Source: a virus. From it: DNA of 64,000 nucleotides. The stretch lies in IMG/VR virus record IMGVR_UViG_3300043777_000102, positions 6,888-70,887 of that record; one strand, 5' to 3'. Positions 2,043 through 34,208 of the stretch are shown here, piece after piece. Position 1 is the stretch's first letter; every line of letters begins with the position of its first letter. The notes beneath the pieces are model-generated. The model was not told the origin of the DNA. It made no database searches and saw only the letters and a program-made list of their open reading frames with translations. A program made the position numbers and the translations under genes.

Positions 2043-4913
2043 GTGGCCCGGACGCTTTACCAAATCCACGCTGAGCCGCAGCGCGCCTATAAGACGATCA
2101 CGTTCAATTCGTCGGGGCATTTCACGGTCCCGCAGGACTGGAACAACAACGACTTCACGATCGACGGGTGGGGGCCGGGTGGTAACTCGGCTGCTGGCAC
2201 CACGACGGGTGCCGGCGGCGCTGGCGGTTCTGGTGGGTGGTCGCGGCTCGACCCTCGGGTAACGCCGCACACCCTGATCCCGGGCACGACCTACCAGGTC
2301 GTCATCGGCGCGGCCGGGTCTGGCACCGCGACGTCGCTTGGTGCGCTGCTGGTTGCCAACGCGGGCGGCAACGCTTCGGGGATCACCGGCGGCACGGGCG
2401 CGACCGCGGGCACGGGGGACCAGACGCGGGCCGGCACGACGGGGGCGGCGGGTACCTCACTCCTCGTTGGTGGTGCCGGCGGCACAGGCGCCCCAGGGCC
2501 GCTCGGGTTGGGCGCGGCAGGAGGGGCCTCGGCAACCTCAAACACCGGTGGCAACGGCGGCGGCGGCGCGGACGGTGGTTCTGTTGGATCACAGTCGGCC
2601 ATCAACGTCGGGGGCAACGGGGGCAACAACGCATCGGGGGCCGGGAGCGGCGCTGGTGGGCCCAGCAACAACACCTCCGGGTCTCCCGGCACGCTCGGCG
2701 GCGGCGGTGGGGGCGCTGGCGCCGGGGGTGCTGGCGTCGGTGGCATCGGCAGCGCGGCAGCGTCGGGCGCCGGGTCGGGCGGCGGTGGTGGAGCGGACAG
2801 CGGATCGACCTCCAACCACGGTGGAGCGGCCGGCGGCTATGGCGCGTCTGGTGGCGCTGGCGGCGCGGGCACGACCTCGGGTGGCGCTGCCGGTGCGTCC
2901 GCCGCCGGCGGCATCATCATCACGTACCTGCCGACGACGAACCAAGAGTTCACCGTCGCGAGTTGGTCGCCGGTCCTCGACATCCCGCAGATGCAGCCGG
3001 TCGGCTTGCGGGCGTGGCTGCAAGAGTTCGGGACCGGCCAGCCTGTAATACCGCCGGCGTCGCTGCCGCGGCTTGGCTGGCGCGAGCCGCTGTCCGAGCC
3101 ACCGGTTCGGCCGTGGCTTCTGGCTGCCCAGCAGCAGGTGTGGGGCGGCCCGGTCGCGCCCGCAACAGTTGTCGTTACCGTCAACCTTGGTTGGTTTGAG
3201 CCGCTGTCTGAGCCGGTGCGGCTCCCTGCCGCGCTGCCCGCCAGCGAGCAGAGGGCCGATACCGAGCCTGTGCGGCCACCGCAGCCCCCCGTCCAGTTCT
3301 ACGAGCCGCTGTCGGAGCCCTACCCGGCGACGCGCGGGCTCCCAGCGACTGAGCAACAGGCATGGGCCGGGCCGATCGCTCCACCGCAGCCGCCGGCGCA
3401 GTTCTTCGAGGCGCTGAGCGAGCCTGTCCGTCAGCCGGTCGCGCTACCTGCCGATCAGCAGCAGTTCGCTGCGGCACCCGTCGCGCCGCCTGTCGCGCCT
3501 CTGTTCCCACATGAGCCGCTCAGTGAGCCGACGCCGCGGCCGTGGTTGCTGACCGCACAACAGCAGGCCTGGACAGGACCAATCGCTCCGGTCAGCGCCG
3601 CGGTCACGGTCAGCATTGGCTGGTACGGTCCGCTGTCCGAGCCGGTCCGGTTCGCCTCGTTCCTGACGGCCTGGCACGTCGCCGCGGCCGGCCCTGTGGC
3701 GCCCCCGCAGCCGCCCGCTCAGTTTTTTGAGCCACTATCGGAACCGCCCGGCAGACCGTGGCTCCCAGCGGCTCAGCAGATTGCCTGGACAGGACCGCAG
3801 ATCGCGCCGGCCGCGCCCGCACCGGCGATCAAATATGAACCGTTGTCCGAACCGCCCCTGCGGCCATGGCTGCTTCCGGCGCAGCAACAGGCGTGGACCG
3901 GCCCGGCGACTAAGCCGATCTACCCGGTCAAGCTCTACCCGCCGCTCAATGAGCCGCCGACACGACCCTGGCTGCCGGTCACTCAGCAGCGCGCCTACAC
4001 CGGGCCAGAACTGTCGCAACCGAACAAGGTGCCCCCGCTCGGCTGGTTGGTTGGTCTGAGCGAACCTGTCCGTCAGCCGCTTGGATTGCTCGCCTGCCAG
4101 CAGCTTGTGTGGGCCAGCGAGATCATCATCCCGCCGCCGCCGGAGCCAGTCACGCCGCCGACGCTCGGCTCTTGGCGCGGCCAAGTCGGGATCAACTGGC
4201 TCGGGATGGCGCTGGTGGGTGACGCGTACACCGGCGTGATGGGTCTGTCGGACTTCGGCTCATTCACCGAGTACGGCAACACCATGCGGTTGCTGGTGAC
4301 GAGCCCGCCGATCCACGAGGACCGCAGGCGCGTTTTCATCCGCCGGTTCGAGGTCGATGTGCAGAGCGGCGTCGGCACCGCAGCGGTCACGCAGTCGCGT
4401 GGTGGGCCCGGGCCAGTGTCGATCATGGTGTCATGGAGCGCGGTGCCGACGCCGCCGTCCCCGGTCACCGTTCTGTCCTACACGCTGCAATGGTCGCCAC
4501 ATGGGTTGAACCAGTGGCAGACGATCACCGGCCTCGGGCTGACCGCGACGATCAGCAACCTGACGTCAGGTGCGACCTACGACTTCCAGGTGGCGGCGCT
4601 CTACAGCAACGGCCAAGGGCCTTGGTCATCTATCGCCATTGGCGGCCCATGCCTCGGCGCGCCGGCGGGCACCTTCACGATCCCGGCGGCGACCAACCCC
4701 AACCTGATGCTGGACTGGTCCGGCAATGGCGGCATGACCTGGAGCGAACAGAACATCTGGCGGCAGATGGGCGCCGTCGGGCAGTACAAGCGCCGCCTGC
4801 GGTGGCTGAATCTCGGGCAGTCGCGGTCCTGGGTGCTGCGTTTGACCTGCACGGACCCGGTGCGCCGTGCGATCATCGGCACCTATCTCGACGTCGGCGT
4901 GGGAGGGATGTGA
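2043..4913 (+). CDS. Large tail appendage protein: Gly-rich domain, ~10 EPLSEP Pro-rich repeats, P22 gp10-like C-terminal module with inserted FN3 domain
   Basis: Gly-rich stretch; repeats; motifs FTEYGNTMRLLVTSPPI and NPNLMLDWSGNGGMTWS..MGAVGQYKRRLRWLNLG..TDPV; FN3 signature (SYTLQW..LTSGATYDFQVAA). Confidence 0.7.
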   Translation: MARTLYQIHAEPQRAYKTITFNSSGHFTVPQDWNNNDFTIDGWGPGGNSAAGTTTGAGGAGGSGGWSRLDPRVTPHTLIPGTTYQVVIGAAGSGTATSLGALLVANAGGNASGITGGTGATAGTGDQTRAGTTGAAGTSLLVGGAGGTGAPGPLGLGAAGGASATSNTGGNGGGGADGGSVGSQSAINVGGNGGNNASGAGSGAGGPSNNTSGSPGTLGGGGGGAGAGGAGVGGIGSAAASGAGSGGGGGADSGSTSNHGGAAGGYGASGGAGGAGTTSGGAAGASAAGGIIITYLPTTNQEFTVASWSPVLDIPQMQPVGLRAWLQEFGTGQPVIPPASLPRLGWREPLSEPPVRPWLLAAQQQVWGGPVAPATVVVTVNLGWFEPLSEPVRLPAALPASEQRADTEPVRPPQPPVQFYEPLSEPYPATRGLPATEQQAWAGPIAPPQPPAQFFEALSEPVRQPVALPADQQQFAAAPVAPPVAPLFPHEPLSEPTPRPWLLTAQQQAWTGPIAPVSAAVTVSIGWYGPLSEPVRFASFLTAWHVAAAGPVAPPQPPAQFFEPLSEPPGRPWLPAAQQIAWTGPQIAPAAPAPAIKYEPLSEPPLRPWLLPAQQQAWTGPATKPIYPVKLYPPLNEPPTRPWLPVTQQRAYTGPELSQPNKVPPLGWLVGLSEPVRQPLGLLACQQLVWASEIIIPPPPEPVTPPTLGSWRGQVGINWLGMALVGDAYTGVMGLSDFGSFTEYGNTMRLLVTSPPIHEDRRRVFIRRFEVDVQSGVGTAAVTQSRGGPGPVSIMVSWSAVPTPPSPVTVLSYTLQWSPHGLNQWQTITGLGLTATISNLTSGATYDFQVAALYSNGQGPWSSIAIGGPCLGAPAGTFTIPAATNPNLMLDWSGNGGMTWSEQNIWRQMGAVGQYKRRLRWLNLGQSRSWVLRLTCTDPVRRAIIGTYLDVGVGGM

Positions 4914-8167: not shown

Positions 8168-8941
8168 ATGCCCTGGATCGGTGGCGCGATCGCGGCTGGC
8201 GGGTCACTGCTCAGCGGCATCATGGGATCAAATGCGGCGAACAAGGCCGCACAGGAGGAGGTCGCCCAGCAGCAGCAGGCCCTCCAATTCCAGCAGAGCG
8301 TGTACGGCCAGACCGTCCAGAACCTCTCGCCCTACGTCGCCAGCGGCAACACGGCGCTGCAATCCGTCATGGGACTGCTCGGCCTCGGCGGCACCGGGCA
8401 GAACGCCAATGCAGCGACCGCATTCAAGGGCTTCACCGGCACGCCGTTCTACCAATTCCCGTTGCAGCAGGGGAACCTCGCGCTGAACCGGCAGCTCGCG
8501 TCGGCAGGCCTGACCGGCTCGGGTGCGGCGCTCAAGGACGCGACGGCGTACAACCAAGGCTACGCCAGCCAGGGCCTCGGGTCGTACCTGCAGCAGCTTC
8601 TTGGCCTGTCGAACCAGGGCGAGAACGCGGCGGCGCTGCAAGGAAGCCAGGGAAATGTGGCGAGCGGCACCCTGGCAAGCCTTCTGACAGGCATCGGCCA
8701 GTCGCAGGCGTCGGGGACCATGGGGTCGTTTAACGCCTTGAACCAAGGATTCCAGGGCGCCTCCGGATCGCTGCTCGGCAACAACAACGGCACGATTGGC
8801 GGCCCTAACAGCGCCATTGGCAGCCTTTTCAGTCAGATCGGTGGTCTGTTCTCGCCGCAGTCCGGGTCGGCCTACCAGATGCTGCCAGCCGCACAGAACC
8901 CAAGCTATGGGGGCGCCGCACCGGCGGGCGGTCTGACGTGA
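8168..8941 (+). CDS. DNA ejection/pilot protein (P22 gp7-like)
   Basis: Gly/Ala hydrophobic N-terminus, Q-rich coil, LSPYV..G..AL and TPFYQF..QQG motifs; synteny. Confidence 0.7.
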   Translation: MPWIGGAIAAGGSLLSGIMGSNAANKAAQEEVAQQQQALQFQQSVYGQTVQNLSPYVASGNTALQSVMGLLGLGGTGQNANAATAFKGFTGTPFYQFPLQQGNLALNRQLASAGLTGSGAALKDATAYNQGYASQGLGSYLQQLLGLSNQGENAAALQGSQGNVASGTLASLLTGIGQSQASGTMGSFNALNQGFQGASGSLLGNNNGTIGGPNSAIGSLFSQIGGLFSPQSGSAYQMLPAAQNPSYGGAAPAGGLT

Positions 8942-11238
8942 GCGGCTACACCGGCAACGCGACCCCGCTGGACGTTGGGACGACCTTCGGGCCGCTCGAC
9001 GCGCTGGCGAAGTGGGGGCAGGTCCAGCAGCAGGGCGCGCAGACGTCGCTGCTCGGGGAGCAAGCAACCGCCGCTCAGATCGCCAACCAGCGCAACCAGA
9101 TGCTGCTCGGATTGTTCGGTGGGGCGATCAACGGTGGGCAGCCAGGGATTCCGAATGGCGGCGGAAGCGCGCTACCAGGGGCGGCGTCGGGGGGCAGTGC
9201 TCTACCAGCAGGTCTTCCGCCGGGCATTCCTCCGCCGCAGCAGGTCAGCACGTCGGGCGCTATCGGGACATCCTTCGGTCCGCCAGTGACCCCGATGCAG
9301 TATGCGACCGCGGTCGCGGCAGCGATGAACGGCGGCGACTTCAATGGCTCGATCGCCAAGGCGATCACCGTCAACCACCAGATCATCGCCTCCACGCTCG
9401 CGCAGGCCGGGAACCCGAACGACCCTGACCCGGCCAAGGCCGCACAGGCACAGCAGGCGATCCGCGTTGCGGCGGCCGATCTCCAGAGACAAGGGCTGAT
9501 CGGTGACGCAGGCTACCAAGCCCTGAACCGCGACCCTGGCCACGCATTGCTGACGATCAAGGCGATGGGCGACCCGAACAACCAGATCAATATCGCTCTG
9601 GAGGAGGCCAAGGCCGGTCTCTCGCAGAACAACAGCGGGCAGTACGGGCCGAACGCTGGCGCCAATGCCGCGCAAGCCCAACTCGCCAGCAGCAAAGCTA
9701 TTGCCGGTCGCACGGGCGAGTCGGTCACGGTCAAGGTCCCGGGGCCCGGCAACACCATCGTCGAACAGCAGGCTCGGGTCATGCCAGACGGCTCGTACGT
9801 CGGCCTCAACGGCAAGCCGCTGGTCGGCGCGATCCCGGTCGCCGGGGCTTCCAGCGCAACTGCCGGACCGGCGGGCTCGTTCGACGCTCTGCCGCCAGCA
9901 CAGCAGGCTATGGTCAAGCAGGTCGCCGCGGCGCATGGCGAGGACCCGAACGTGGTCGCGGCGCAGTGGAAGTTGGAGGACGCGACGCGGTTGAACCCGA
10001 CGGTCGGCGATGGTGGAAAGAGCTTTGGCCCGCTTCAGATGCAGCAGGGCGCGCTGGACGACTACAACAAGGCGCACGGAACGAACCTCACCCTGGACGA
10101 CCTTCAGGCATCGCCGCGCCTCGGCCTGGACGTCGGCACGGATTACCGCGTCTCCCAGGCCAAGGCATTCGGCAACAATCCGGTGCTCGGCGCGATGGCT
10201 CACAACTGGGGGCCGCAGAAGGTTGTCGACTGGCGCGCGGCTGGCTCGGACCCGAACGCCGTCCCGCCGGCCGTGCAACGGTATGTCACGGCGATGTATG
10301 GCCCGAACGCGATGGGCATGGCGCAGGCGCCGCCCCCCGCCGGAGGCACGCAAGCGGCTGCTGCGGCCACCCCCGCTCCGGCGGCGCCGGCGACGACCGG
10401 TATCGGCACCAGCGCTCCGCAGTTCACGCCCCAGCAGCAGGTCGCGGTCGACCAGGACAAGGCCCTGCTGGCGCACGATGCTCCGCTGGTGGCCGACGCG
10501 CAGACCGCGGCCATGAAGGCCCAGGGATCGGCTGCCGTGGTGTTGGACCTGCGCCAGCGTGCGGCGTCAGATCCAGCAGCATTCGGAAGCGCCGGCGACT
10601 GGCGCACCTCGATCGGCAACACCCTGGCGACCTTCGGCCCTCAGTGGGCGCAGGACTTCGCCAAGTGGTCCACGGACAACAAGATCGACCCCTCGACTAC
10701 CGCGGGGCGCCAGGCGATGGGCAAGGAGTTTTTCAGCCTGGTGACCAATGCTGAGCAGCAGCTTGGCGGCCGGCCGGGGGCGATGCTGACACAGTACTTC
10801 TCCAAGGCGATGCCGAACATCAACATGCAGGGCGACGCCGTGAAGGAGATGCTGAATTTCGTCCTGGTCGGCAACCAGATGGCCCGCGACTACGGCCAGG
10901 GCGCGGCGGCGCACTTCAACGCCGCGAGCGCAGCTTTCCCGGCGCAGGATCCGCTGACAGATCGGTACAAGCCGCTGACCCAGTACGATGAGCAATGGAC
11001 GGCGCCGGGCTCGGTCAGTTCGCCAAACGTCTACGAGGGGGCTTCGAACATCCTGAACGGCCGGCCGTACGACATCTGGTCCAAGGGCCTGACGCGCGCG
11101 CAGGCCGCCGACCAGCAGGCCGAGGCGCTGCGGATCGCGCTGCGGGCTGACCCATCGTTCAAGCTCGGCGCAGGCCAGTTGCCAGCCCGAGCGCCGGCGC
11201 CGATCGCGCCGCCGATGCAGCAGGCGGCCGGTCCCTGA
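8938..11238 (+). CDS. DNA ejection protein (gp20 position) with lytic transglycosylase-like domain
   Basis: WKLED..GDGGKSFGPLQM..MAHNWGP..YV lysozyme-like motifs; synteny. Confidence 0.65.
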   Translation: MSGYTGNATPLDVGTTFGPLDALAKWGQVQQQGAQTSLLGEQATAAQIANQRNQMLLGLFGGAINGGQPGIPNGGGSALPGAASGGSALPAGLPPGIPPPQQVSTSGAIGTSFGPPVTPMQYATAVAAAMNGGDFNGSIAKAITVNHQIIASTLAQAGNPNDPDPAKAAQAQQAIRVAAADLQRQGLIGDAGYQALNRDPGHALLTIKAMGDPNNQINIALEEAKAGLSQNNSGQYGPNAGANAAQAQLASSKAIAGRTGESVTVKVPGPGNTIVEQQARVMPDGSYVGLNGKPLVGAIPVAGASSATAGPAGSFDALPPAQQAMVKQVAAAHGEDPNVVAAQWKLEDATRLNPTVGDGGKSFGPLQMQQGALDDYNKAHGTNLTLDDLQASPRLGLDVGTDYRVSQAKAFGNNPVLGAMAHNWGPQKVVDWRAAGSDPNAVPPAVQRYVTAMYGPNAMGMAQAPPPAGGTQAAAAATPAPAAPATTGIGTSAPQFTPQQQVAVDQDKALLAHDAPLVADAQTAAMKAQGSAAVVLDLRQRAASDPAAFGSAGDWRTSIGNTLATFGPQWAQDFAKWSTDNKIDPSTTAGRQAMGKEFFSLVTNAEQQLGGRPGAMLTQYFSKAMPNINMQGDAVKEMLNFVLVGNQMARDYGQGAAAHFNAASAAFPAQDPLTDRYKPLTQYDEQWTAPGSVSSPNVYEGASNILNGRPYDIWSKGLTRAQAADQQAEALRIALRADPSFKLGAGQLPARAPAPIAPPMQQAAGP

Positions 11239-13790
11239 TGCCGCCGCTGGATGATCTCGCCACCGCCGCCGGGCTGACGGCAAACCCCGATGGAACGTGG
11301 AGTCTGCCCGCGACAGGGCCAACAGCCAATGCTCCGGCACCCGCGGCCGCCGGTGTTCCGATCCCGCCTCTGGCACCCGGCGTCACCGAACTACCGACGG
11401 TCCACGTCCATGCGAAGGCGCCCGCACCGACCGGCGCGCCCGTCGTCTCTGCGGGCGCCACACCGACCTCCGGACCACCCGACCTCGCCACCGCTGCTGG
11501 CCTGGTCGAACTGCCTGATGGGACATGGGGGCTGCCGGGAACCGCTGCGCAGGCGCCGGCTGCCACGCCAGCCGCTGTCACAAAGCCGCTTCCGGGACCG
11601 ACGCCAGAAGCCGCAGAGATGCAGCAGCAGCCGTGGTTCCAGGACATGTACAACAACGTCAAGCAGGGGGCGAACACGGCAGGGCTTGAGGAGGAGATGC
11701 TGCACGGCTCATCCCTCGGCCTAAGCGATCTGCTGGTGCCTGTGGTGCCGGCAGCGATCCACGCGCTGACGACCGGAATGCCGTTCTCGCAGGCTTACGA
11801 TCTGGCGCAGCAGACCATGCAGGCGCCACGCAAGGAGTTCGAAGCTGAGCATCCGGATGCCTCGATGGTCACCTCGATGGCGTCTGGCATCCCCGCGACG
11901 AAAGTGCTGGCGCCGCTGTTCGCGGGTGCCCAGGCGGGTGCGCCGGCGCTCCAGCGTATCCTGATGGGGATGAAGAACCTTGCACTCGGCGGCGCGGCGG
12001 GGGGGGCCAGTAGCTACCTGATGACCGACGGGACGCAGCAGCAGAAGCTCGAGGCCGCGAAAGAGGGCGCTGAGCTCGGCGGGGGACTGACCGGGGCAGC
12101 ACAGGTGCTCGGCCCGACCGCGAGCGCCGTGGGCCGCTACGTCAGTTCCGCGCTGCGGCCGAACGCCAACGTGGACGCGATGGCGGGGAACGTGCTGCTC
12201 CAGCGCGCCGGCGGCACGGCGCCGACCATGGAAGCTCCGGCGATTCCCGGGATGCCTCTCGGCATCGGGGGGGCATTCAATAATCCCGGCTTCGCAGCCA
12301 TGGAACGCGAGACGAACCAGGTCGAACCGATCGGCGCGAACCAGATCAGGGCCGCACAGAACCAGGCGGTGGTCGAGCATGCCACGACACCGCAGGCTGG
12401 CGGCGTCCAACTGGCGACCCGCATGGAGCCGGGCGAGGCTTCAACGAACGTCGTCACCGGCATGCAGAAGGCGAACGAGGTCCTGCGCGCCGAGGAGCGC
12501 CGACGGTGGAATGTCGATCCCCTCGCGCAGATGAAGCCCGACCTCCAAGCGGTGAAGGACCGAGTCGCCAAGGCGCTCGGGCGCCTTCCGCTCCGGGTGC
12601 AGCGCGCAATCGAGAATAACGCCGACCTGAAGGGCACGCTGGGCGACCTGCAGGGCATGGCCGATGGGGCAACACTGGCAGACGTCAACGACATCCGCAG
12701 CGACCTTCTGACGGTTGCGCGCACGCTGCCGCGCACCGAAGGATTGGCCCGCCGCGCGGCGAACATCGCGGCGAAAGAGGTGCTCGACGCGCTTGAGGAC
12801 AACCCCGAGATGAAGGCCGACCCGCGCGCGTGGGCGGCATACAAGGCCGCGCGCGGTTACAGCGCCCGTATGTGGGACGTCATGGGGCACGACGAGTTCC
12901 AGTCGATGCTTAGGACCAACCGCTTCGGCAATCAGGCCGGCGACGCCGGGACGCTGGCGGCGCAGCTGTTCAACCTGAGCGCAGGGACGGAGGTGACGCC
13001 GGGCGGTATCGCTGGCATCGGCAGGATGCTCGACCAGGTGCAGCGACAGTGGACTGCGTTGCGTGCGGCCGGCGTCGGCGCGGGGTTGGACCCAGTCACA
13101 GCGACTGCGGCGCGTGAGGAGCTGACCAACGGGGCGCGCGACTTCATCATCAACAAGATGCTCGACGCGGCCCTGTCGAACACCAGAGACACGACCGGCG
13201 CGCAGAACACCCTCATGGCGCGGCTGTCCGACTGGATCGACACGAACAAAGGCTGGGTCAGTCGAAGCCGGCTGTTCGACCAGAACCAACTCGACCTGCT
13301 GGACAACATCCGACGCGCCGCGATCCAGGCCGCGCGCACCGAGGATCTGAAGGGCGGTCCCGGGAGTCCGACCTTCGCGCTCCTGAAAGGCGACCGCTTT
13401 GTCGATGCCTTCCTCGGCCCGTTCCTCGGGCGCGCGATTACGACCGTCGGCGGCATCGGGCTCGGCGCCGCGCTCACGGCAGCGTTCGGTGAGGCTGGCA
13501 TCGGCGGCATGATCGGCGCGGAACTCGTCGGCGCCGGCGTCGGTGGGGCGGCCGGACATACCGGCCAGACGATCCTTCAGCGGCTCTATGCGCAGCCTCG
13601 TGAGGCGATCCTTGCCCGGTTGCAGGAAGCGACGCGCGATCCGCAGATCGCCCACGACCTGATGATGGCGGCCACCGCAGCCAATGCTAAGCGGATGTCG
13701 CCGGCCACCATCCAGCTGCTAAGGTCGGCATTGGCGATTGAGCCGCCCGCTCAGGTGATGTCGCGCTTCGGCCCTGGCTCACAGCAGTAG
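11238..13790 (+). CDS. Large DNA ejection protein (gp16 position)
   Basis: 850 aa Ala/Gly-rich helical protein, third of the ejection trio; TGATG coupling; duplicated N-terminal LATAAGL..DGTW.LP. Confidence 0.65.
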   Translation: MPPLDDLATAAGLTANPDGTWSLPATGPTANAPAPAAAGVPIPPLAPGVTELPTVHVHAKAPAPTGAPVVSAGATPTSGPPDLATAAGLVELPDGTWGLPGTAAQAPAATPAAVTKPLPGPTPEAAEMQQQPWFQDMYNNVKQGANTAGLEEEMLHGSSLGLSDLLVPVVPAAIHALTTGMPFSQAYDLAQQTMQAPRKEFEAEHPDASMVTSMASGIPATKVLAPLFAGAQAGAPALQRILMGMKNLALGGAAGGASSYLMTDGTQQQKLEAAKEGAELGGGLTGAAQVLGPTASAVGRYVSSALRPNANVDAMAGNVLLQRAGGTAPTMEAPAIPGMPLGIGGAFNNPGFAAMERETNQVEPIGANQIRAAQNQAVVEHATTPQAGGVQLATRMEPGEASTNVVTGMQKANEVLRAEERRRWNVDPLAQMKPDLQAVKDRVAKALGRLPLRVQRAIENNADLKGTLGDLQGMADGATLADVNDIRSDLLTVARTLPRTEGLARRAANIAAKEVLDALEDNPEMKADPRAWAAYKAARGYSARMWDVMGHDEFQSMLRTNRFGNQAGDAGTLAAQLFNLSAGTEVTPGGIAGIGRMLDQVQRQWTALRAAGVGAGLDPVTATAAREELTNGARDFIINKMLDAALSNTRDTTGAQNTLMARLSDWIDTNKGWVSRSRLFDQNQLDLLDNIRRAAIQAARTEDLKGGPGSPTFALLKGDRFVDAFLGPFLGRAITTVGGIGLGAALTAAFGEAGIGGMIGAELVGAGVGGAAGHTGQTILQRLYAQPREAILARLQEATRDPQIAHDLMMAATAANAKRMSPATIQLLRSALAIEPPAQVMSRFGPGSQQ

Positions 13791-13856
13791 GACCGTCGAA
13801 CAGCGCGATACCGCTGCACAGCGCCGACAGCGCGACCCAGACGAACGCCGGATAAA

Positions 13857-14120
13857 TCAGGATCGCGAGCATTTTTCTTTTCCCTTTGCCGCTTCCTCTC
13901 TCAGTCTCAGTACACCGGCCGCCAGGTCGCGTCGCAACCTCTCTATCAACCTGACGCCAGGGAATATGGTGCCGGTGAGAATTGGCTGGATCTGCTCGCG
14001 GGGTACCGGGGTATTGGTCGTGGCGATCCGGAGCGACCAATCATCGCCGTAGAGACGCCGCACCAAATAGAAAAAGGCGTTGCGCCGCTGAAATGGCGTC
14101 ATGTCCCTGGTTGGCTGCAT
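13857..14120 (-). CDS. Small HTH-like protein, paralog of the N-terminal half of 44045-44506
   Basis: Shared RR.AF.YL..RL.GD.W...QIQ..L.G motif. Confidence 0.7.
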   Translation of the reverse strand: MQPTRDMTPFQRRNAFFYLVRRLYGDDWSLRIATTNTPVPREQIQPILTGTIFPGVRLIERLRRDLAAGVLRLREEAAKGKEKCSRS

Positions 14121-14437
14121 CAGTCGGCTCGCGACTGAACATAGTCCGCAAGAGCTGCTGCCTCATTCTCACGGGCGCCGCTGGTCAACAGCGCGGACCG
14201 CACAGCGCGCCCGAGGAACTTGATGAACACCTCGTCGCTGGTGATCGCGCTGAAAAGCTCCGAAGCGTCGCGGGACGTCAGGCCCGCAATGACGGTGCCA
14301 TCCTCCATCTGGCGGTCCACCTGGAGAAGGCTGCCGCCGTTCCACCCCCGGCGCCGGAAAGACCAGCGGGCCAGCTCCCCCCGCAATGCCTTCTCGATCG
14401 GACTGGATGGAATGGCGTCTCGTGCGGTCGTGTCCAT
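14120..14437 (-). CDS. Hypothetical protein
   Basis: GGAGG RBS; coupled to the downstream gene. Confidence 0.6.
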   Translation of the reverse strand: MDTTARDAIPSSPIEKALRGELARWSFRRRGWNGGSLLQVDRQMEDGTVIAGLTSRDASELFSAITSDEVFIKFLGRAVRSALLTSGARENEAAALADYVQSRAD

Positions 14438-14473
14438 GCTGTGGACCTCCGGGGTTCGGCCGGCGCGAGCTTC

Positions 14474-14502
14474 TTGACACCCGCGCCGGCCTGCTGGATT
14501 GT
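14474..14502 (+). promoter_or_regulatory. Sigma70-type promoter
   Basis: TTGACA-17 nt-GATTGT. Confidence 0.55.
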
Positions 14503-14508
14503 CCGCTC

Positions 14509-15050
14509 ACCGGATCCGTTGGCACGGATGTCGGTCAGGATTGAAGCCCTCACCGGCGTTCAACCCACGGCGGACCGTGATCAAAAATCGCACGGCGACC
14601 GTCAGGGTTCAACCCTTCCCGGCATCAAATCCTCGACCGGCCTCGCTTTCGGCGTTCGGTGCGGCGTCTGCAACGGGGAAACGATGTCCCGGTCGCCGCG
14701 AGCAACCGCGCAGGAGAGGCTCAGGAAAGCGCGGACGGCCAGACTGCCCGGCAACGGGTGGCACCAGGGTCGCCTGGGAGTCGGACGCACTGGCTATCAG
14801 GCTGCCCTCGGTCGCCATGCCCGGGCATCACGCCAGCCGACGCAAGCGGGGTGTCTACGTCGCGGCGGCGCGTCCGCTTCGGCCGCCAATATGGGGCGCG
14901 GCTCACTCAGGAAGCCACCCTTGGCAATGGTCGGCCCGGATTGGCGCAAGCCGTCCGAAGTGCTGACTATTGCCAAGTCCAAAACGCTCTCTCCTCGGAA
15001 GCCCTGAAGGTAAGAAGGGAAGGAAGATCAGATGATCGAGCCTTCAGTAC
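14509..15050 (+). ncRNA. Candidate large structured ncRNA (boundaries approximate)
   Basis: No convincing ORF; G-U-containing stems (14530-14542/14628-14641; 14920-14935/14962-14977) and GCAA tetraloops. Confidence 0.5.
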
Positions 15051-15338
15051 TGGTACTCGCGCGAGGGTAGCGCGTTCACGCCGTCGTGCTATCTTTGTCT
15101 TGGCCCAGCAGGCCATCGCAGTGGAGTTCCACCGATGCGCAAGCCCAGGGTCGAGACCGTGGCGATGCCGAAGGTTCCCGTCTCGCCGGCGGTAACGCGG
15201 GTCCGGGCGCAGTTCGGGCAGCCTGGCCTGTTCGCGCACCACCCGCCGAGTCCCACCGCCGTCGGCGCGCGCGAGGAGAAGCCCCGGCATCGGCTGGCGT
15301 CGGCTGCGGGCGCTCGCTCGCCGATGGGAGTCTGAGCG

Positions 15339-16244
15339 ATGGCCGGCTCAATTCTCTACCTGCCGATCACTTTCTGGCCGGATGCCAACGGCGTGCCGAT
15401 GGCCGGCGCGCAGCTTCTGTTCTTCCAAAGCGGCACGTCGACGCCCGCGCTCGTCTACAGCGACATCAACCTGACGGTCAGCCTCGGAAGCACCGTCACA
15501 GCGAACGCTGGCGGCTGGTGGCCCGAGATATTCCTGAGCCCGAGCTTCGGTTACCGGGTGCAAGTCTGGACGGCAGCGACCGTCGACAACCCGACCGGCA
15601 GCGAGGTCTGGTCCGCCGATAACGTCGGTCCCGGCGCGTCCGGCGCGCTCAGCAACACCGCCGGCATCATCGGCGAGGTGCGGGACTTCGCTGGGCTGGT
15701 CAGCGCGATCCCGTCCGGCTGGTATGTCTGCGCAGGTCAAGCGGTCAGCCGCGCCACTTATGCGGCGTTATTTTCGGTGCTTGGCACGGCCTGGGGTGCC
15801 GGTGACGGCTCTACCACCTTCAACCTCCCTGACCTCCGTAGCCGCGTGACGGCCGGCCTGGACAACATGGGGGGCTCGGCGGCCGGCCGGATCACATCAG
15901 GGGTGGCCGGCATTCAGGGGACCACGCTCGGGGCGGTCGGCGGCAACCAAGCCACGCAGGCGCACAACCACGCCCTGACCGATCCCGGGCATGTCCATGT
16001 CGTTTCCGATCCCACCCACACCCACCTGATCGCGGGCGAGCTCGTCGGCACCGGCTCGGACTCGGCGGGCCTGACCAACTGGACCGGCGGGAATGCGCCC
16101 AACGTGGTGAGCGGTCCGGCGTCGACCGGCATCACCGTGCAGTCGGCAGTGACCGGGATCACCGTGGCGAGCTATGGGGCCGGGAATAGCCAAAACTGCC
16201 AACCAACCGCGATGGTCAACAAGATTTTGTACGCCGGCGTGTGA
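15339..16244 (+). CDS. Tail fibre/spike with head-binding-like N-terminus and tail collar domain
   Basis: DANGVPMAGAQL.F...GTSTP..VYSD; tail collar IGEVRDFAG..PSGW..C.GQAVSRATYAALF..LGT.WG.GDGSTTFNLPDLR. Confidence 0.85.
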   Translation: MAGSILYLPITFWPDANGVPMAGAQLLFFQSGTSTPALVYSDINLTVSLGSTVTANAGGWWPEIFLSPSFGYRVQVWTAATVDNPTGSEVWSADNVGPGASGALSNTAGIIGEVRDFAGLVSAIPSGWYVCAGQAVSRATYAALFSVLGTAWGAGDGSTTFNLPDLRSRVTAGLDNMGGSAAGRITSGVAGIQGTTLGAVGGNQATQAHNHALTDPGHVHVVSDPTHTHLIAGELVGTGSDSAGLTNWTGGNAPNVVSGPASTGITVQSAVTGITVASYGAGNSQNCQPTAMVNKILYAGV

Positions 16245-16250
16245 ACCGCC

Positions 16251-16682
16251 ATGAGCCTCACTATCACCCTGGACGGGATCGTGCCGATGAGCGACGGAAA
16301 CCCCTATCTGCGTTACGGCCGTCGCGCGGGCGACCTCACTCCCGAGCAGAAGGCCAAGCTGCCGTACCCGAAGTCGTGCAAGGACTGCCTGAACGCGCCG
16401 CCGCGGACGCGGGTGTACGCCAGCGTGACGGCAAAGCTCGGTCTCGTAGTCGGCGCCCTGACGCTCGCTGGCGCGGTGTCCACGGCGGTCTATGCTGGTC
16501 TGCACGGCGCGTTTCAGGCCGGCGACTATTATCGGACGCAGGCCCAGGTCGCTGACGAGGTGAAGCAGATCGCCCAGACCGTCCGCGGGCACGACGAGGC
16601 GATCCGGCGCATCGAGATGAACGTCCAACGGCTGACAGACGCGATCCTGCCGGCGCACTATGATGGAAAGCCCAGCAAGTAG
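16251..16682 (+). CDS. Membrane protein with C-terminal coiled coil
   Basis: One hydrophobic segment plus coiled coil. Confidence 0.6.
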   Translation: MSLTITLDGIVPMSDGNPYLRYGRRAGDLTPEQKAKLPYPKSCKDCLNAPPRTRVYASVTAKLGLVVGALTLAGAVSTAVYAGLHGAFQAGDYYRTQAQVADEVKQIAQTVRGHDEAIRRIEMNVQRLTDAILPAHYDGKPSK

Positions 16683-26947: not shown

Positions 26948-27280
26948 TCAGGAACGTGGCCAGCAGGCCGGCTCGCAGACGACAGCAATCCCGTACACCC
27001 GGTGGTCGGTCAGCTCGGACAGCGGCGTGCCGGTGCGGCGGTGCAGGCTCTCGCGGAGGATGGCGGTCGCCGGTCGGTTCTCGTCGCCCAGGACGCCGTT
27101 GGTCAGCAGGTCGACCTCGACCCCATCATGCTGCCAGACCGGCAGGCGCACCACGCGGGAGGCGCGCATCAGGACCCGCGCGACGTCACGGATGCTGTCG
27201 GCCGTCGGCGGGTCGGGCAGTTCGATGCCGCAGCGCATGCTCGCGCCGGCGGGGAACAGGCAGGTGAAGTGGACCTTCAT
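26948..27280 (-). CDS. Hypothetical protein
   Basis: Coupled ORF; ENRPATAI..VYGIAVV. Confidence 0.6.
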   Translation of the reverse strand: MKVHFTCLFPAGASMRCGIELPDPPTADSIRDVARVLMRASRVVRLPVWQHDGVEVDLLTNGVLGDENRPATAILRESLHRRTGTPLSELTDHRVYGIAVVCEPACWPRS

Positions 27281-27552
27281 GGCAGCAGACCCCCTGCGTC
27301 GAGTTTCAGCGCCTTGGCGAAGTCAGCTAGCTGGTGGATCAGCAGCTTCTGGCGCCCGGCCTCGATGTTCGCAACCGACGCGCGGGACAGGTGCACGGCC
27401 TTGGCGAGCTCCAGTTGTGTCAGCAACAACTCAAGGCGACGCTCGGCAAGCGTCGCTCCGAGCCGCCGGTAATATGCGCGCTGTCGCAGCGGCCAGGAGG
27501 GCGCAATGGCCTTCTTCCGGCGCCGGCGCGTGATAATGATGACGCGGCGCAT
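27277..27552 (-). CDS. XRE-family HTH regulator
   Basis: LTQLELAKAVHLSRASVANIEAGRQ. Confidence 0.85.
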   Translation of the reverse strand: MRRVIIITRRRRKKAIAPSWPLRQRAYYRRLGATLAERRLELLLTQLELAKAVHLSRASVANIEAGRQKLLIHQLADFAKALKLDAGGLLP

Positions 27553-28400
27553 CACGTCACCTTGCGGTCTTCTTGGATCGCGAGTCCCGGGCAGCTTCGC
27601 AGCTTCTCCGACCGGATCGCGTAGCCGATGCGCGTAGTGTTGAACTGCACGAAATCGAGCGGCGCTTTGCCGGCCGCGATGGCCTTGACCAGCGTCAGGA
27701 GATCGCTCGCCTCGACGTCCAACTTCCACCGCGTCGTCAGGGACGCGACGCCACCGAGCGGCGAGTAAACACGCGACAGTTCGGCAGCCGGGGCGTGTGC
27801 GGCGTCGGCGGCGTCCTGGGCGGCGTTGCCAAGGCGCGCGGCGCTCTCCAGCGCATCGGCGTCGTCGTGCTGGATCGCCTGGGCAGCGGCGGCAGCGGCC
27901 TTGTCAGCCAGCGCCTTCGCCCCGGCCTGGGCGACTGCGCGGCGCATGGCCTCGACCTTCTCGGCGTATGCGGTGCGCCGGCGGTTAATGACCGGCAGCG
28001 CGGCTTCCAGCTTGGCGGCCAGGGCCTTGAAGAAGCCGTCCACGGCACGCTGGGCGACCAGCACGGGCGCCTTCTCAATGGCGTGGTGCGTCCCGATCAG
28101 CTTGATGTGGTCTTTGATCTTGTTGGCCAGATCCGTCGCCCGGCCCTGCACGTCGTCGTCCAGGATGACGGGAAAGCCCTTGTCGAACCGGCCAAACGAC
28201 TCCAGCAGCTCCTTCTCGCGCTCGCGCAGGATGGCGCAGTTGTGCTCCAGCCAGTCGGTCCACCCAGCCGCGTCCAGCGTCAGGGACGCGGCCGGCGGCC
28301 GGTTGTCGCCCATCGGCGGGGGCTCAGCCTCAACCACAGGCGCGACATACGGATCGCTGCCACCGCGGCGACGGGCGCGGGATGCTCCTGAGAGGGCCAT
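27552..28400 (-). CDS. Conserved phage coiled-coil protein
   Basis: MGDNRPP motif, EKAPVL..QRAVDGFF, C-terminal PGLAIQED. Confidence 0.7.
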   Translation of the reverse strand: MALSGASRARRRGGSDPYVAPVVEAEPPPMGDNRPPAASLTLDAAGWTDWLEHNCAILREREKELLESFGRFDKGFPVILDDDVQGRATDLANKIKDHIKLIGTHHAIEKAPVLVAQRAVDGFFKALAAKLEAALPVINRRRTAYAEKVEAMRRAVAQAGAKALADKAAAAAAQAIQHDDADALESAARLGNAAQDAADAAHAPAAELSRVYSPLGGVASLTTRWKLDVEASDLLTLVKAIAAGKAPLDFVQFNTTRIGYAIRSEKLRSCPGLAIQEDRKVT

Positions 28401-28651
28401 CAGAGCGGCTCGTCGTCGGCCGGGACCGCGGCGGGACGCTGCGAACGAATCTCCTTCTGGCGCGCTTCCTCCAAGAAGCGGTCGATCTCCCAGCACACGT
28501 CGGGCGCCATCCCTTCGCCGCCCGGACGCCCGAGCAGCGCAGCGTGGAAGGCCTCCACCACGAAGGCCTGCGCCTGCAGGACGTGGTTCGCCTGCCTGAC
28601 GCGGCGCAGCTCGTCGGCTGCCTGACGCATCAGACGCTCGTGCTCCTTCAT
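28400..28651 (-). CDS. Hypothetical protein
   Basis: GAGGAG RBS; TGATG coupling. Confidence 0.6.
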   Translation of the reverse strand: MKEHERLMRQAADELRRVRQANHVLQAQAFVVEAFHAALLGRPGGEGMAPDVCWEIDRFLEEARQKEIRSQRPAAVPADDEPL

Positions 28652-28653
28652 GG

Positions 28654-29019
28654 TCAGAACTCCTCGACAGGTTGAAGCCGTAGGTCGACGGGCTGCATCG
28701 GGTTTGCGGCGGGGTGGCGCGGCCGGTGCAGCTTCGCGTAGTCGCGCAGGGCGTTCAGGTAGTCGTACTCGGACTGGCTGATCGGCTCGCCGTACAGGTG
28801 GACGCGCTGCGCCAGGTTCGTATCGGGCAGGTCGCGAAACTCCTCCAGCGTCCAGAAGCCGAGCGCTGGCGAGCCGTCCACCGTCGCGGTCCAGACATCG
28901 TGCAGCATGTCCAGCTTGGCCGGGACCTTCCACGCACGCGGGGCAAGTCTGACCTTGTAGAAGCCGGCGACAGGCTCCGATACGACTCGCGGTTTGGTCC
29001 AGTCCCTTGTGTCAGCCAT
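28654..29019 (-). CDS. Hypothetical phage protein, first gene of the leftward operon
   Basis: PVAGFYKVRL..PI..SEYDYL..HPAANP..PVDL. Confidence 0.7.
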   Translation of the reverse strand: MADTRDWTKPRVVSEPVAGFYKVRLAPRAWKVPAKLDMLHDVWTATVDGSPALGFWTLEEFRDLPDTNLAQRVHLYGEPISQSEYDYLNALRDYAKLHRPRHPAANPMQPVDLRLQPVEEF

Positions 29020-29116
29020 GTAACCCCCGATCGCGGCTATGGAAGGCACGACGCCTCTTTGCAGTCAAGGCGAAAATACGCTTGCGTTAATAAATTTTCC
29101 TGCGTAGCGTGACCGG
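29020..29116. promoter_or_regulatory. Divergent early control region
   Basis: AT-rich intergenic segment between leftward and rightward operons. Confidence 0.55.
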
Positions 29117-29485
29117 ATGGATAGCACATTGCGCTACTACCCTGGCAGCCGGCTCCTGGATTTCGGTGACCGGTCCGCCCTCCTGACCGCCGCCGAGAGT
29201 GCGCTTTTCCTCGCGGCGGCGACTGCTGGCAAGCACGGGATCACATGGGAGGCGCTTGCCGAGCGCGTGCGGCGTCCGTCGGCTGGCGCGTCGGCCACCT
29301 ACCGGAATCACATGCGACAGGTGCTCCATAACCTCCGCGCGACGCTGCGCGATGCCGGTATTCCGATCGCGATCGATGTGGTGACCGGGATGGGCGTCGT
29401 CTGCCGCAGTGACATCGAGATCGTTTCTCAACTCCAGCAGGAGCCTACCAATGGCCAGGAAGCCGAAGGACGAGTCAGTGAGTAA
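29117..29485 (+). CDS. Stand-alone OmpR/PhoB-type winged-helix protein (CtrA-DBD-like, no receiver domain)
   Basis: LT..E..LF..ITWEALAERV..RQVLHNLRATL..IDVVTGMG matches the OmpR effector-domain pattern. Confidence 0.55.
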   Translation: MDSTLRYYPGSRLLDFGDRSALLTAAESALFLAAATAGKHGITWEALAERVRRPSAGASATYRNHMRQVLHNLRATLRDAGIPIAIDVVTGMGVVCRSDIEIVSQLQQEPTNGQEAEGRVSE

Positions 29486-30074
29486 CGTGGACCCCGACCT
29501 GATGGTCGAAGCGCTCGGCTGGTACGCCGAGAAGCGCGGCGACATAGCCAGCATCCAGCAGGAGATCGCGACCGGGCTAGGGCGGTACGAGAAGCAGGGG
29601 ATCGACAAGAAGGCGCTGAAGCTGGCCTACAGCCTCCAGTCGTCCGATCTGACGCCCGAGGAGATCGCGGCGCAGCGTCGGCGCGAGCACGAATACCTGA
29701 CCTGGGCCGGGATCATCACGGTCGAGGCAGACGGTCAGACGTCGATCATCACCGGTTTGGAGCCGAAGAAGCCGAGCGCCAAGGCGGCGAAGAAGCTGGC
29801 GGACGGCAAGGTGCAATCCGACGGCTACAACACGGCTCGCGCTGGAGGCACCTTGGACGACAACCCGCACCAAGCCGGGACCGAGGACTATGCGCTGTGG
29901 GCCGAGGCGTTCACCCAGTCGCGCCATGACGTGCAGGAGGAGGAGGCCAAGGCAGCGCTGCCGCCTGCCAAGCGCGGTCGGAAGGCGTCACCGGCCGCCG
30001 CCGCCGTTGAAGCGTTGCAGGCCCAGGCCGAGCGGTTGGGCGGCGACATGCCGGCCACAGTCGAAACGCCGTGA
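29451..30074 (+). CDS. GapR-like (DUF2312-like) nucleoid protein with RMF-like C-terminal motif
   Basis: GIDKKALK...L..D...EYL..AG; GYNTARAG....NPH..GT..Y..W. Confidence 0.5.
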   Translation: MARKPKDESVSNVDPDLMVEALGWYAEKRGDIASIQQEIATGLGRYEKQGIDKKALKLAYSLQSSDLTPEEIAAQRRREHEYLTWAGIITVEADGQTSIITGLEPKKPSAKAAKKLADGKVQSDGYNTARAGGTLDDNPHQAGTEDYALWAEAFTQSRHDVQEEEAKAALPPAKRGRKASPAAAAVEALQAQAERLGGDMPATVETP

Positions 30075-30613
30075 TCGTCCTGGCCGTTGACCCCGGTCAG
30101 TCCGGCGCGCTCGCATGGGTGCACAGCAGCGGCGCGCTGATCGCGGTCGCGGACATGCCGGTGGTCGAGGTGCGCGGCAAAAACCGAGTGTCGGCTACGG
30201 GATTGGCTGCCCTGATGCGCCGCCGTGACGTGTCCATGGTTGCGATTGAGCAGGTTATCGCGATGCCGCGAGTGCGAGCCAATGGCAACGCGATCAAGAT
30301 GGGCGCGGCTTCGACTTTGTACTTCGGGTACGGAGCAGGTCTGATCGAGGGCGTTGCGACTGGATTGGACCTACCGGTGCGCGTCTTGCATCCCAGCACA
30401 TGGAAATCGCGCGGCGGGATCCCGGCTGACAAGGGTGCCGCCCGGCAGATGGCGCAACGTCTCTGGCCGGCGAGCGCCGCCATGTTCAACCGCGTGAAGG
30501 ACCACGGTCGTGCTGATGCCGCGTTGCTCGCTCGATTTGTCGCAGTCGGAGATGCGCTTGGCGGTCCGCATCTCGCCATTGACGTCCGCAGCGCCGAGCA
30601 ACAGGCTGGCTGA
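30071..30613 (+). CDS. RuvC-like Holliday junction resolvase
   Basis: VLAVDPG..GALA, VAIEQV, P.TWK, DHGRADAALLA. Confidence 0.85.
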   Translation: MIVLAVDPGQSGALAWVHSSGALIAVADMPVVEVRGKNRVSATGLAALMRRRDVSMVAIEQVIAMPRVRANGNAIKMGAASTLYFGYGAGLIEGVATGLDLPVRVLHPSTWKSRGGIPADKGAARQMAQRLWPASAAMFNRVKDHGRADAALLARFVAVGDALGGPHLAIDVRSAEQQAG

Positions 30614-30632
30614 CAACTGATCGGGGGACGAA

Positions 30633-32952: not shown

Positions 32953-33087
32953 AATGCAGAACGCCAGCCGTGGGGGCTGGCGCTGCGTTTGGATGGGCCG
33001 TGCAAGGGCCGAACCCGGAGAAGCCTTGATGGAGCTTCCCCGATTTAAGCGGCACGGCGTCATCCGTCAAGCAACGGAGACGTGACA

Positions 33088-34197: not shown

Positions 34198-34208
34198 AAG
34201 GACCGACG

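What the first reader, a model, noticed from the sequence alone, without database searches (positions are those of the whole stretch)
14474..15060. ~500-nt highly structured ncRNA candidate with its own promoter inside the virion gene region
Seen: TTGACA-17-GATTGT promoter and no credible ORF. A 16-bp stem 14920-14935/14962-14977 has two G-U pairs and encloses GGC-GCAA-GCC. Also a long-range stem 14530-14542/14628-14641, TGCCCG-GCAA-CGGGTG at 14745-14760, AGGAGAG (14712) complementary to CTCTCCT (~14990), and GTTCAACCC twice, partly complementary to GGATTGAAGCCC (alternative pairings). G-U pairs favour the + strand. Established: phages encode large structured RNAs (GOLLD, ROOL) and C4-type antisense RNAs. 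Inference: an unclassified large phage RNA or antisense switch; a single-strand DNA priming signal is an alternative.
Basis: partly seen in the sequence, partly recalled or inferred. Interest (0 to 1): 0.7.

Follow-up and report, generated by a model that had tools for sequence, protein, structure and literature searches.

The report
Portable structured RNA cassette in soil phage
A non-coding stretch just upstream of a soil phage's tail-fibre genes holds a roughly 300-base RNA fold that is preserved by matching base changes in a second phage, where it sits in a different part of the genome, so it is probably a new, movable RNA gene of unknown function.

Summary

A 299-nt core (14698-14996, + strand) is 80% identical to L018:8593-8891. 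L018 is a related viral contig in which the element lies in the replication module, not the tail module.

- **Structure:** over 91 predicted pairs, 182 of 182 cells pair. Ten pairs changed on both sides and 7 on one side.
- **Controls:** consensus folding z is -6.3 to -6.9, against -0.9 to +2.3 for 20 control tests on coding alignments of the same two phages.
- **Strand:** 28 G-U cells favour the + strand.
- **Not coding:** six 1-nt indels and no codon periodicity.
- **Conserved flanks:** a TTGACA-N17/18-GATTNT promoter-like site lies 170-195 nt upstream in both phages. A 16-nt polypurine tract lies 15-16 nt downstream in both.
- **Dispensable:** a near-identical relative (L006) keeps both flanks but carries unrelated sequence in place of the cassette.

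There is no Rfam match, only two full members could be retrieved, and no RNA data exist. Function is unknown. I favour a stand-alone accessory RNA. A cis-acting leader and an RNA-primed origin remain open.

The parts
14474..14502 (+). Promoter-like site TTGACA-17-GATTGT
   Evidence: The motif TTGACA-N17/18-GATTNT occurs once in the 64-kb window (2 of 100 shuffles had a match). It occurs once in L018, at 8393-8422 (0 of 200 shuffles). In both it is on the same strand, 195 and 170 nt upstream of the conserved core. L006 has TTGACG-16-TATCCT at the equivalent left edge. The tool's strict scan does not call the window site.
14503..14697 (+). Variable 5' domain. It holds the long-range stem near 14530-14542/14628-14641, the box AGGATTGAAGCCCTC and two copies of GTTCAACCC.
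   Evidence: Fold z is -2.62. Similarity to L018:8423-8592 is weak, with alignment z 2.6 against 300 shuffles. The shared boxes AGGATT..AG.CCTC and GTTCAA.CCC were seen by eye. Conservation of structure is not shown.
14698..14996 (+). Conserved structured core: 14 helices, 91 predicted pairs
   Evidence: The core is 79.9% identical to L018:8596-8884 over 293 nt (E 3e-62). In the RNAalifold consensus, 182 of 182 cells pair, with 10 pairs changed on both sides and 7 on one side. Column-shuffle z is -6.25, and 1 of 200 shuffles reached 10 compensatory pairs. One search gives z -6.93, against -0.88 to +2.31 in 20 coding-region controls.
14744..14761 (+).
   Evidence: Seven pairs, of which one changes C-G to G-U on both sides in L018.
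14920..14977 (+).
   Evidence: I2. One search counts 22 pairs, 3 changed on both sides and 1 going from G-U to G-C. The stem also forms in L018's own MFE fold.
15005..15047 (+). 3' hairpin CUGAAGG...CCUUCAG carrying a 16-nt polypurine tract (15012-15027)
   Evidence: The tract ties for the longest purine or pyrimidine run in the window. L018 has a 16-nt tract at 8908-8923, the longest in that locus. The tracts start 15 and 16 nt after the core. The tail alignment scores z 2.98. The hairpin appears.
14454..15048 (.). Block replaced by unrelated sequence in the close relative L006
   Evidence: The flanks are 96.5% identical (11966-14453) and 83.7% identical (15076-16682). The middle aligns at random level, scoring -36 against shuffles of -49 +/- 10.6, or 57% identity with 99 gaps. 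Similarity resumes near 15049.
14120..14437 (-). Flanking 105-aa gene, divergent from the cassette, with SD GGAGG; no known family
   Evidence: Identity to L006 by codon position is .943/.962/.868. No Pfam, PHROG, PADLOC or Atlas hit.
15135..16244 (+). Downstream 66-aa ORF (15135-15335) and tail-collar fibre gene (15339-16244)
   Evidence: The fibre gene hits PF07484 at E 2.5e-21. The 66-aa ORF is under purifying selection, with identity .985/.985/.806 by codon position.

Best explanation
Window 14474-15047 is a self-contained, horizontally portable cassette for a non-coding RNA of about 0.54 kb, read from the + strand.

Its parts, in order:
- a sigma-70-type promoter with a perfect -35 and a weak -10;
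- a fast-evolving 5' domain of about 195 nt;
- a 299-nt core that folds into a multi-branched structure of about 14 helices, including two hairpins capped by GCAA;
- a short 3' hairpin carrying a polypurine tract.

Shown: the core is conserved, it is not coding, and its pairings are kept through compensatory changes on the + strand. The unit sits in unrelated genomic contexts in two phages. It is absent from a near-identical relative.

Inferred: the promoter is active, and the functional product is the RNA itself. I take it to be an accessory, moron-like stand-alone RNA that acts in trans during infection, for example as a scaffold or decoy for a host or phage factor, rather than a regulator tied to one gene.
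For: **Non-coding.**
- Codon-position GC is flat.
- Eight ORFs gave no Pfam or PHROG hit.
- The core alignment has six 1-nt indels, and mismatches by position mod 3 are 23/23/15.
- The best amino-acid identity in any frame pair is 42 of 99, despite 80% nucleotide identity.

**Conserved structure.**
- 91 pairs, with 182 of 182 cells paired; 10 pairs changed on both sides and 7 on one side. Slid controls give 0-1.
- All 27 mismatches that fall in paired columns keep the pair.
- Consensus energy is -123.95 against -87.6 +/- 5.8 for column shuffles. One of 200 shuffles reached 10 compensatory pairs.
- In 10 coding alignments of the same two phages, tested on both strands, z ran from -0.88 to +2.31. 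The core gave -6.93.
- Paired columns are 85% identical. Third codon positions between the two phages are 66-76% identical.

**Strand.**
- 28 of the 182 cells are G-U (counted).
- Consensus energy is -124 on the + strand and -99 on the - strand.

**Own promoter.** The same rare motif lies 170-195 nt upstream in both phages.

**Portability.**
- The unit is in the tail module here and in the replication module in L018. There it lies between a C-5 methylase plus a small ORF on one side and a 201-aa ORF on the other.
- There is one copy per record.
- No flanking gene is shared.

**Dispensable.** In L006 the cassette is swapped for unrelated sequence between conserved flanks.
Against: - Only two full-length sequences exist. 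The structure was derived from the same two sequences that were used to count covariation.
- L018's own fold z is only -2.32, with 6 of 200 shuffles as good.
- The -10 hexamer is poor, and the tool's scan calls no promoter.
- No intrinsic terminator follows the core in either phage. In both contexts a co-oriented gene starts 66-139 nt downstream, which fits a leader as well as a stand-alone RNA.
- There is no expression evidence of any kind.
- Nothing indicates a target or partner, so trans action is inference only.
Confidence: 0.45

Rival explanations
1. The element is a cis-acting leader. The promoter drives the downstream operon (66-aa ORF plus tail fibre here; the 201-aa ORF in L018). The structured RNA is a long 5' UTR that controls or protects that transcript, for example by processive antitermination, mRNA stabilisation or ligand sensing. 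The polypurine/CCUUC hairpin would serve as the expression platform.
For: - The element is co-oriented with a + strand gene and lies 66-139 nt upstream of it in 2 of 2 contexts.
- No terminator-like site lies between the core and that gene.
- L006 keeps a promoter-like site at the same left edge, followed by a different leader of about 600 nt. This suggests the slot is the fibre operon's leader.
- The SD-like purine tract is partly sequestered in a hairpin.
Against: - The downstream genes are unrelated in the two phages.
- L006 keeps the fibre operon without this RNA.
- About 85 nt upstream of the 66-aa ORF are conserved with L006 and may hold that operon's own signals.
- A 14-helix core is large for a leader.
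- No Rfam riboswitch or leader family is hit.
Confidence: 0.3
2. The element works at the DNA or replication level. It would be an RNA-primed (R-loop) origin, in which a promoter-driven structured pre-primer ends in a polypurine tract that stays hybridised and primes DNA synthesis. A single-strand DNA priming signal is a variant of the same idea. From recall, this works like ColE1 RNA II or the T4 origins, one of which lies in a tail-fibre gene.
For: - Promoter, structured transcript of about 0.5 kb and a conserved 16-nt polypurine tract occur together in a locally low-GC stretch (50% GC over 14990-15049, against 66% overall).
- There is a single copy per genome.
- In L018 the unit sits in the replication module, after DnaB and directly before an ORF with a weak DnaT-domain hit (E 0.004, below the Pfam cut-off).
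- No terminator follows.
Against: - In the window the unit lies among tail genes.
- L006 has unrelated sequence there, with no polypurine run of 12 nt or more.
- There are no iterons or other origin-type repeats.
- The cumulative GC skew turns near 24 kb and 54 kb, not at 15 kb.
- The many G-U pairs are weak as G-T pairs in DNA.
- The DnaT hit is below threshold.
Confidence: 0.1
3. The element has no function of its own. It would be a leftover of recent horizontal transfer or a decayed gene, whose GC-rich sequence folds well by chance.
For: - Only two members exist, and a close relative lacks it.
- GC-rich DNA folds strongly.
- The unrelated block in L006 also gives z -2.8 and -4.3.
Against: - At 20% divergence, none of the 27 substitutions in paired columns breaks a pair.
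- Shuffle and coding-region controls do not reproduce this result.
- The core is more conserved than third codon positions.
- No protein similarity is seen in any frame.
Confidence: 0.1
4. The element holds a small protein-coding gene with atypical composition.
For: Long open frames exist on the + strand: 188, 155 and 178 aa. This is usual at 66% GC.
Against: - No GC3 signal.
- Six 1-nt indels between the two copies and no codon periodicity.
- Zero hits in Pfam, PHROGs and PADLOC.
- The 12-aa mini-ORF at 15033 has no start codon in L018.
Confidence: 0.03

Closest known systems
GOLLD and ROOL, large orphan structured RNAs of phages and prophages (family names recalled; cryo-EM preprint 10.1101/2024.12.08.627333 seen only as a search listing and abstract start)
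   Same: Phage-borne, several hundred nucleotides long, multi-helix, with no associated protein gene and unknown function. They appear to be accessory rather than core genes.
   Different: Rfam 15 gives no match, even at E up to 10. The conserved core is about 300 nt, which is smaller (recalled sizes: about 580 nt for ROOL and 800 nt for GOLLD). It is not next to a tRNA gene; the only tRNA in the window is at 43142. Only two members are known.
ColE1 RNA II pre-primer and phage T4 R-loop origins (recalled knowledge)
   Same: A promoter-driven structured transcript of about 0.5 kb without a terminator. The purine-rich 3' segment could stay hybridised to DNA. One copy per replicon.
   Different: There is no sequence or Rfam relation. 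No antisense partner was identified. Origin activity is untested, and the element lies in the tail module here.
Candidate structured RNAs of viruses and phages (Fremin, Bhatt and Kyrpides 2023, PMC10690425; abstract and section 2.1 read)
   Same: A conserved intergenic element in IMG/VR contigs, supported by covariation.
   Different: Their csRNAs are 29-151 nt long and had to match at least 3 regions of IMG/VR 3.0 (section 2.1). This core is 299 nt with 2 retrievable members, so it would not have passed those filters. Their supplementary lists could not be seen.
P1/P7 C4-type antisense immunity RNA
   Same: A small phage regulatory RNA locus that differs between otherwise similar phages.
   Different: No Rfam hit. 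The element is far larger. No complementary target was found: the complement of the conserved single-stranded 3' segment has no second exact site in the window, only one 1-mismatch match, which is within chance expectation.

Membership tests
Any described RNA family (Rfam 15, 4227 models) | Covariance-model score at or above the family's gathering threshold | tested here: not met
   Over the whole window, only a tRNA passes. In E-value mode, 14300-15300 gives 4 hits, all with E 0.37 or worse and far below gathering. L018:8380-8960 gives 5 hits, all with E 0.36 or worse.
Structured non-coding RNA (generic) | Secondary structure kept across homologs through compensatory changes, beyond what controls give | tested here: met
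   Ten compensatory pairs against 4.05 +/- 1.8 in shuffles (1 of 200 reached 10). Consensus z is -6.3 to -6.9, against -0.9 to +2.3 in 20 coding controls. The test rests on only 2 sequences.
Structured non-coding RNA (generic) | Absence of coding signal | tested here: met
Independent RNA gene | Own promoter | tested here: inconclusive
   The same rare promoter-like motif lies upstream of both copies. Its -10 is weak, and the strict scan does not call it. Activity is untested.
Independent RNA gene | Defined 3' end (terminator or processing site) | tested here: not met
   No intrinsic-terminator-like site follows the core in the window or in L018. Processing sites cannot be tested here.
Independent RNA gene | Detectable transcript | not testable with these tools
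   No RNA run is listed as a holder.
Gene-specific cis-regulatory leader (riboswitch or attenuator type) | Constant association with one downstream gene family | tested here: not met
   The downstream genes are a 66-aa ORF plus fibre here and an unrelated 201-aa ORF in L018.
DGR template repeat | A near-identical copy (variable repeat) in a target gene | tested here: not met
   The gap has no second match in the window longer than 34 nt; every secondary match has E 0.45 or higher, which is chance level.
R-loop / RNA-primed origin | Promoter plus a downstream segment able to form a persistent RNA-DNA hybrid | tested here: inconclusive
   A promoter-like site and a conserved 16-nt polypurine tract in a locally low-GC stretch are present. 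Hybrid formation and origin activity cannot be tested here.
tRNA / tmRNA | ARAGORN call | tested here: not met
   The only call is tRNA-Met at 43142-43218.

The most novel reading that the evidence does not exclude
The cassette is a mobile, host-machinery-driven replication origin: a promoter, a structured pre-primer RNA and a polypurine primer tract. On this reading it can be moved between phage modules, sitting in the tail module in one phage and the replication module in another, and can be exchanged for a non-homologous equivalent in a near-identical relative. It would work like ColE1 RNA II but would belong to a new RNA family. Equally unexcluded is the reading that the 14-helix core is a new class of large catalytic or scaffold RNA.
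Probability: 0.1. Interest if true: 0.8.

Novelty: new variant of a known kind. Interest (0 to 1): 0.58.

Why it matters
Large bacterial and phage RNAs with complex folds are few, and several have proved to be ribozymes or unusual RNA assemblies. Here is a candidate new family with a clear unit structure: promoter, variable 5' domain, 299-nt core and polypurine tail.

Three features make it directly testable. It is portable between genome modules. There is a natural 'allele' that lacks it. It is small enough to clone for transcription mapping, structure probing and deletion.

The result also shows that the long 'empty' gap before the tail-fibre operon in this phage lineage is an exchangeable slot. 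Two near-identical phages carry unrelated, promoter-headed, non-coding inserts of about 600 nt there.

Tried and rejected
**Expression.** No RNA holder is listed. Laying 4 soil DNA runs gave only short contig pieces.
- A 168-nt contig in X3 spans 15013-15180 with 5 differences.
- X4 and X2 pieces cover 14444-14547 and 14783-14904 at about 88-90% identity.
- Their sequences cannot be retrieved, so they were not used for covariation.

**Homolog hunting.**
- GenBank phages by blastn: no match.
- Neighbour-protein scans of viral contigs with the 105-aa and 850-aa proteins: none.
- Fibre relatives L002-L005 and L007-L013 do not hold the element.
The model R1 found nothing at E below 0.1 in the 79 of those loci that were searched. 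L018 was among the 119.
- Two motif scans of genome contigs: 0 hits, then 21 hits that do not extend beyond the motif.
- blastn of the core in 401 and 301 genomes of two proteobacterial orders and in 5 other genomes: nothing beyond one 23-nt chance hit.

**Coding.** Pfam, PHROGs and PADLOC on gap ORFs gave 0 hits. tblastx against the L006 and L002 gaps gave only chance-level hits.

**Other readings tested.**
- DGR or other repeat: none.
- Pseudoknots of 5 bp or more between unpaired conserved columns: none.
- A closing helix AGGAGAG/CTCTCCT: not kept in L018.
- The 12-aa mini-ORF at 15033: not kept in L018.
- A link to the divergent 105-aa and 87-aa genes: neither is found in the L018 or L002 records. 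L018's record is only 37% complete.
- Atlas search for the 105-aa protein: no usable hit.
- Neutral drift as the cause of the L006 difference: rejected, because the immediately flanking genes are 81-87% identical at third codon positions.

**Unavailable.** The supplementary lists of PMC10690425 could not be seen, so I cannot say whether a sub-motif of this element appears there.

Full report
**Context.** The window is bases 6888-70887 of a 70,887-bp IMG/VR virus record rated 100% complete, with about 66% GC. It encodes a large terminase (47210), portal (50204), major head protein (56431), a RecT-like protein, an exonuclease and a DnaB-type helicase, so it is a tailed dsDNA phage. The nearest isolated phages share 40% or less terminase identity and infect Proteobacteria.

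The finding lies among tail genes. On its left are + strand structural genes up to 13790, with fn3 and tail-fibre-like hits. Two small - strand genes of no known family follow (13857-14120 and 14120-14437). On its right are a 66-aa ORF (15135-15335) and a tail-collar fibre gene (15339-16244; PF07484, E 2.5e-21).

**Observation.**
- The 697-nt gap 14438-15134 has flat codon-position GC, whereas flanking genes reach 0.8-0.9 at one position.
- No ORF in the gap has coding-like GC3, and 8 ORFs gave 0 Pfam and 0 PHROG hits.
- Folding is better than chance and asymmetric between strands. For 14474-15060, z is -3.07 on + and -1.77 on -.
- The strongest 200-nt window, 14900-15099, gives -4.43 on + and -0.38 on -.
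- Rfam finds nothing here, either at gathering thresholds or in E-value mode.
- The tool's strict sigma-70 scan calls no promoter, because GATTGT matches only 3 of 6 positions.

**A close relative lacks the sequence.** Metagenome contig L006 is 96.5% identical to the window over 11966-14453 and 83.7% identical over 15076-16682. The roughly 600 nt in between are unrelated. The global alignment scores -36, against -49 +/- 10.6 for shuffles, and identity is 57% with 99 gaps.

This is replacement, not drift. The genes that touch the gap are 87% (105-aa gene) and 81% (66-aa ORF) identical at third codon positions, and both show the pattern of purifying selection. Similarity ends just after the ribosome-binding site of the 105-aa gene and resumes near 15049. 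L006's own block is also non-coding. It begins with a promoter-like TTGACG-16-TATCCT.

**A homolog in another context.** A 20-mer from the gap found one viral contig, L018 (24,281 bp). L018 is syntenic with the window's replication module (27209-35615). It nevertheless carries, at 8596-8884, a 293-nt stretch that is 79.9% identical to window 14701-14989 (E 3e-62).

In L018 the stretch lies in an intergenic gap. Upstream are a C-5 cytosine methylase and a small Cys-rich ORF. Downstream is a 201-aa ORF. The window has no copy at the corresponding place (32843-33928) or anywhere else, and each record holds one copy. No flanking gene is shared.

**The core is not coding.** The alignment has six 1-nt indels. 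Mismatches show no codon periodicity (23/23/15). No pair of frames gives more than 42 of 99 identical residues.

**Its structure is conserved.** RNAalifold predicts 91 pairs in 14 helices.
- All 182 cells form standard pairs. Ten pairs changed on both sides and 7 on one side.
- All 27 substitutions that fall in paired columns keep the pair.
- Sliding the partners by 1-3 columns gives 0-1 compensatory pairs.

Because the structure was derived from these same two sequences, I added two controls.
- Shuffling alignment columns within conservation classes gives a consensus energy of -87.6 +/- 5.8, against -123.95 observed (z -6.25). One of 200 shuffles reached 10 compensatory pairs.
- The same test on 10 coding alignments between the same two phages, on both strands, gives z from -0.88 to +2.31 and compensatory counts near their nulls. 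The core gives -6.93 on + and -2.43 on -.

Twenty-eight of the 182 cells are G-U (counted), which fits the + strand only. Paired columns are 85% identical and unpaired columns 70%. Third codon positions between the two phages are 66-76% identical.

These are the 16-bp stem with its GCAA-capped extension, and the TGCCCG-GCAA-CGGGTG hairpin. The AGGAGAG/CTCTCCT pairing is not kept in L018.

**Unit structure.** Outside the core the two copies are only weakly alike: the 5' 170-195 nt score z 2.6 and the 3' tail scores z 3.0. Two landmarks are shared.
- A TTGACA-N17/18-GATTNT site occurs once in the 64-kb window and once in the 11.9-kb L018 locus (2 of 100 and 0 of 200 shuffles). In both it lies on the strand of the core, 195 and 170 nt upstream. 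A looser version of the motif is also unique in the window, so it is not a general promoter of this phage.
- A 16-nt uninterrupted polypurine tract starts 15 nt (window) and 16 nt (L018) after the core. It ties for the longest such run in the window and is the longest in L018. In both it is followed by CCUUC, which can pair back onto it.

The stretch from the promoter to the end of this hairpin (14474-15047) matches the block that L006 has exchanged. Neither copy is followed by an intrinsic-terminator-like site.

**Interpretation.** The evidence supports a functional, strand-specific nucleic-acid structure that travels as a unit with a promoter-like site. I am about 80% confident that the core is a real conserved structured element. 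What it does is not shown.

I favour a stand-alone accessory RNA (0.45). The unit has no constant gene partner, it moves between modules, a near-identical phage does without it, and its core is large and multi-branched.

A cis-acting leader is a serious rival (0.3). Both copies sit just upstream of co-oriented genes with no terminator between, and L006 keeps a promoter-headed leader of similar length at the same slot.

An RNA-primed origin or ssDNA signal (0.1) would explain three things: the combination of promoter, structured transcript and polypurine tract; the single copy per genome; and the location of the L018 copy beside replication genes. It fits poorly with the tail location here and with the L006 swap.

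Chance or decay (0.1) and a coding gene (0.03) are disfavoured by the controls.

**Limits.**
- There are two full sequences only.
- Short contigs in three other soil runs show that relatives at about 88-97% identity exist, but they cannot be retrieved.
- There are no RNA data.
- The large survey of candidate structured RNAs in IMG/VR 3.0 reports elements of 29-151 nt that needed at least 3 matches (PMC10690425, section 2.1). This element would not have qualified. The survey's supplements could not be checked.

Noticed in passing
window 15135-15335: The 66-aa low-complexity ORF upstream of the fibre gene is real coding sequence. Its identity to L006 by codon position is .985/.985/.806. It is in the same frame as the fibre gene, separated only by TGA and one codon. 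No family was found for it.
   Followed up: partly
L006:2489-3135: The block that replaces the cassette in the close relative is also non-coding. It starts with TTGACG-16-TATCCT and folds better than shuffles on both strands, with z -2.84 and -4.27. It may be a second, unrelated RNA occupying the same slot.
   Followed up: partly
L002:3054-3991: A more distant relative, whose fibre protein is 57% identical, also has a gap of about 940 nt with flat codon-position GC upstream of its fibre gene. The gap holds a 64-nt direct repeat (3394-3457 and 3594-3657; 84% identical). It has no R1 or Rfam hit.
   Followed up: partly
window 14458-14467 / 14482-14491: A perfect 10-bp inverted repeat, GGCCGGCGCG/CGCGCCGGCC, brackets the -35 hexamer of the promoter-like site (I7). 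It could be an operator or part of the divergent 105-aa gene's control region.
   Followed up: no
window 13857-14437 versus L006: The two small - strand genes differ in how far they have diverged from L006. The 87-aa gene is 99.2% identical, with no third-position change, and the 66-nt spacer before it is 100% identical. The adjacent 105-aa gene is 92.5% identical. This suggests a further recombination joint near 14120.
   Followed up: no
L018:7458-8195 and 8957-9562: The genes flanking the L018 copy are a C-5 cytosine DNA methylase (PF00145, E 4.7e-6) and a 201-aa ORF. The N-terminus of that ORF gives a sub-threshold DnaT DNA-binding-domain hit (E 0.004). Its C-terminal 112 residues match window 33847-34188 at 70% identity.
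   Followed up: partly
window 43142-43218: The phage carries a tRNA-Met (CAT) gene.
   Followed up: no
window 15033-15071: A 12-codon mini-ORF follows the polypurine, SD-like tract at a spacing of 5 nt. L018 has no start codon at that place, so it is probably not translated.
   Followed up: yes
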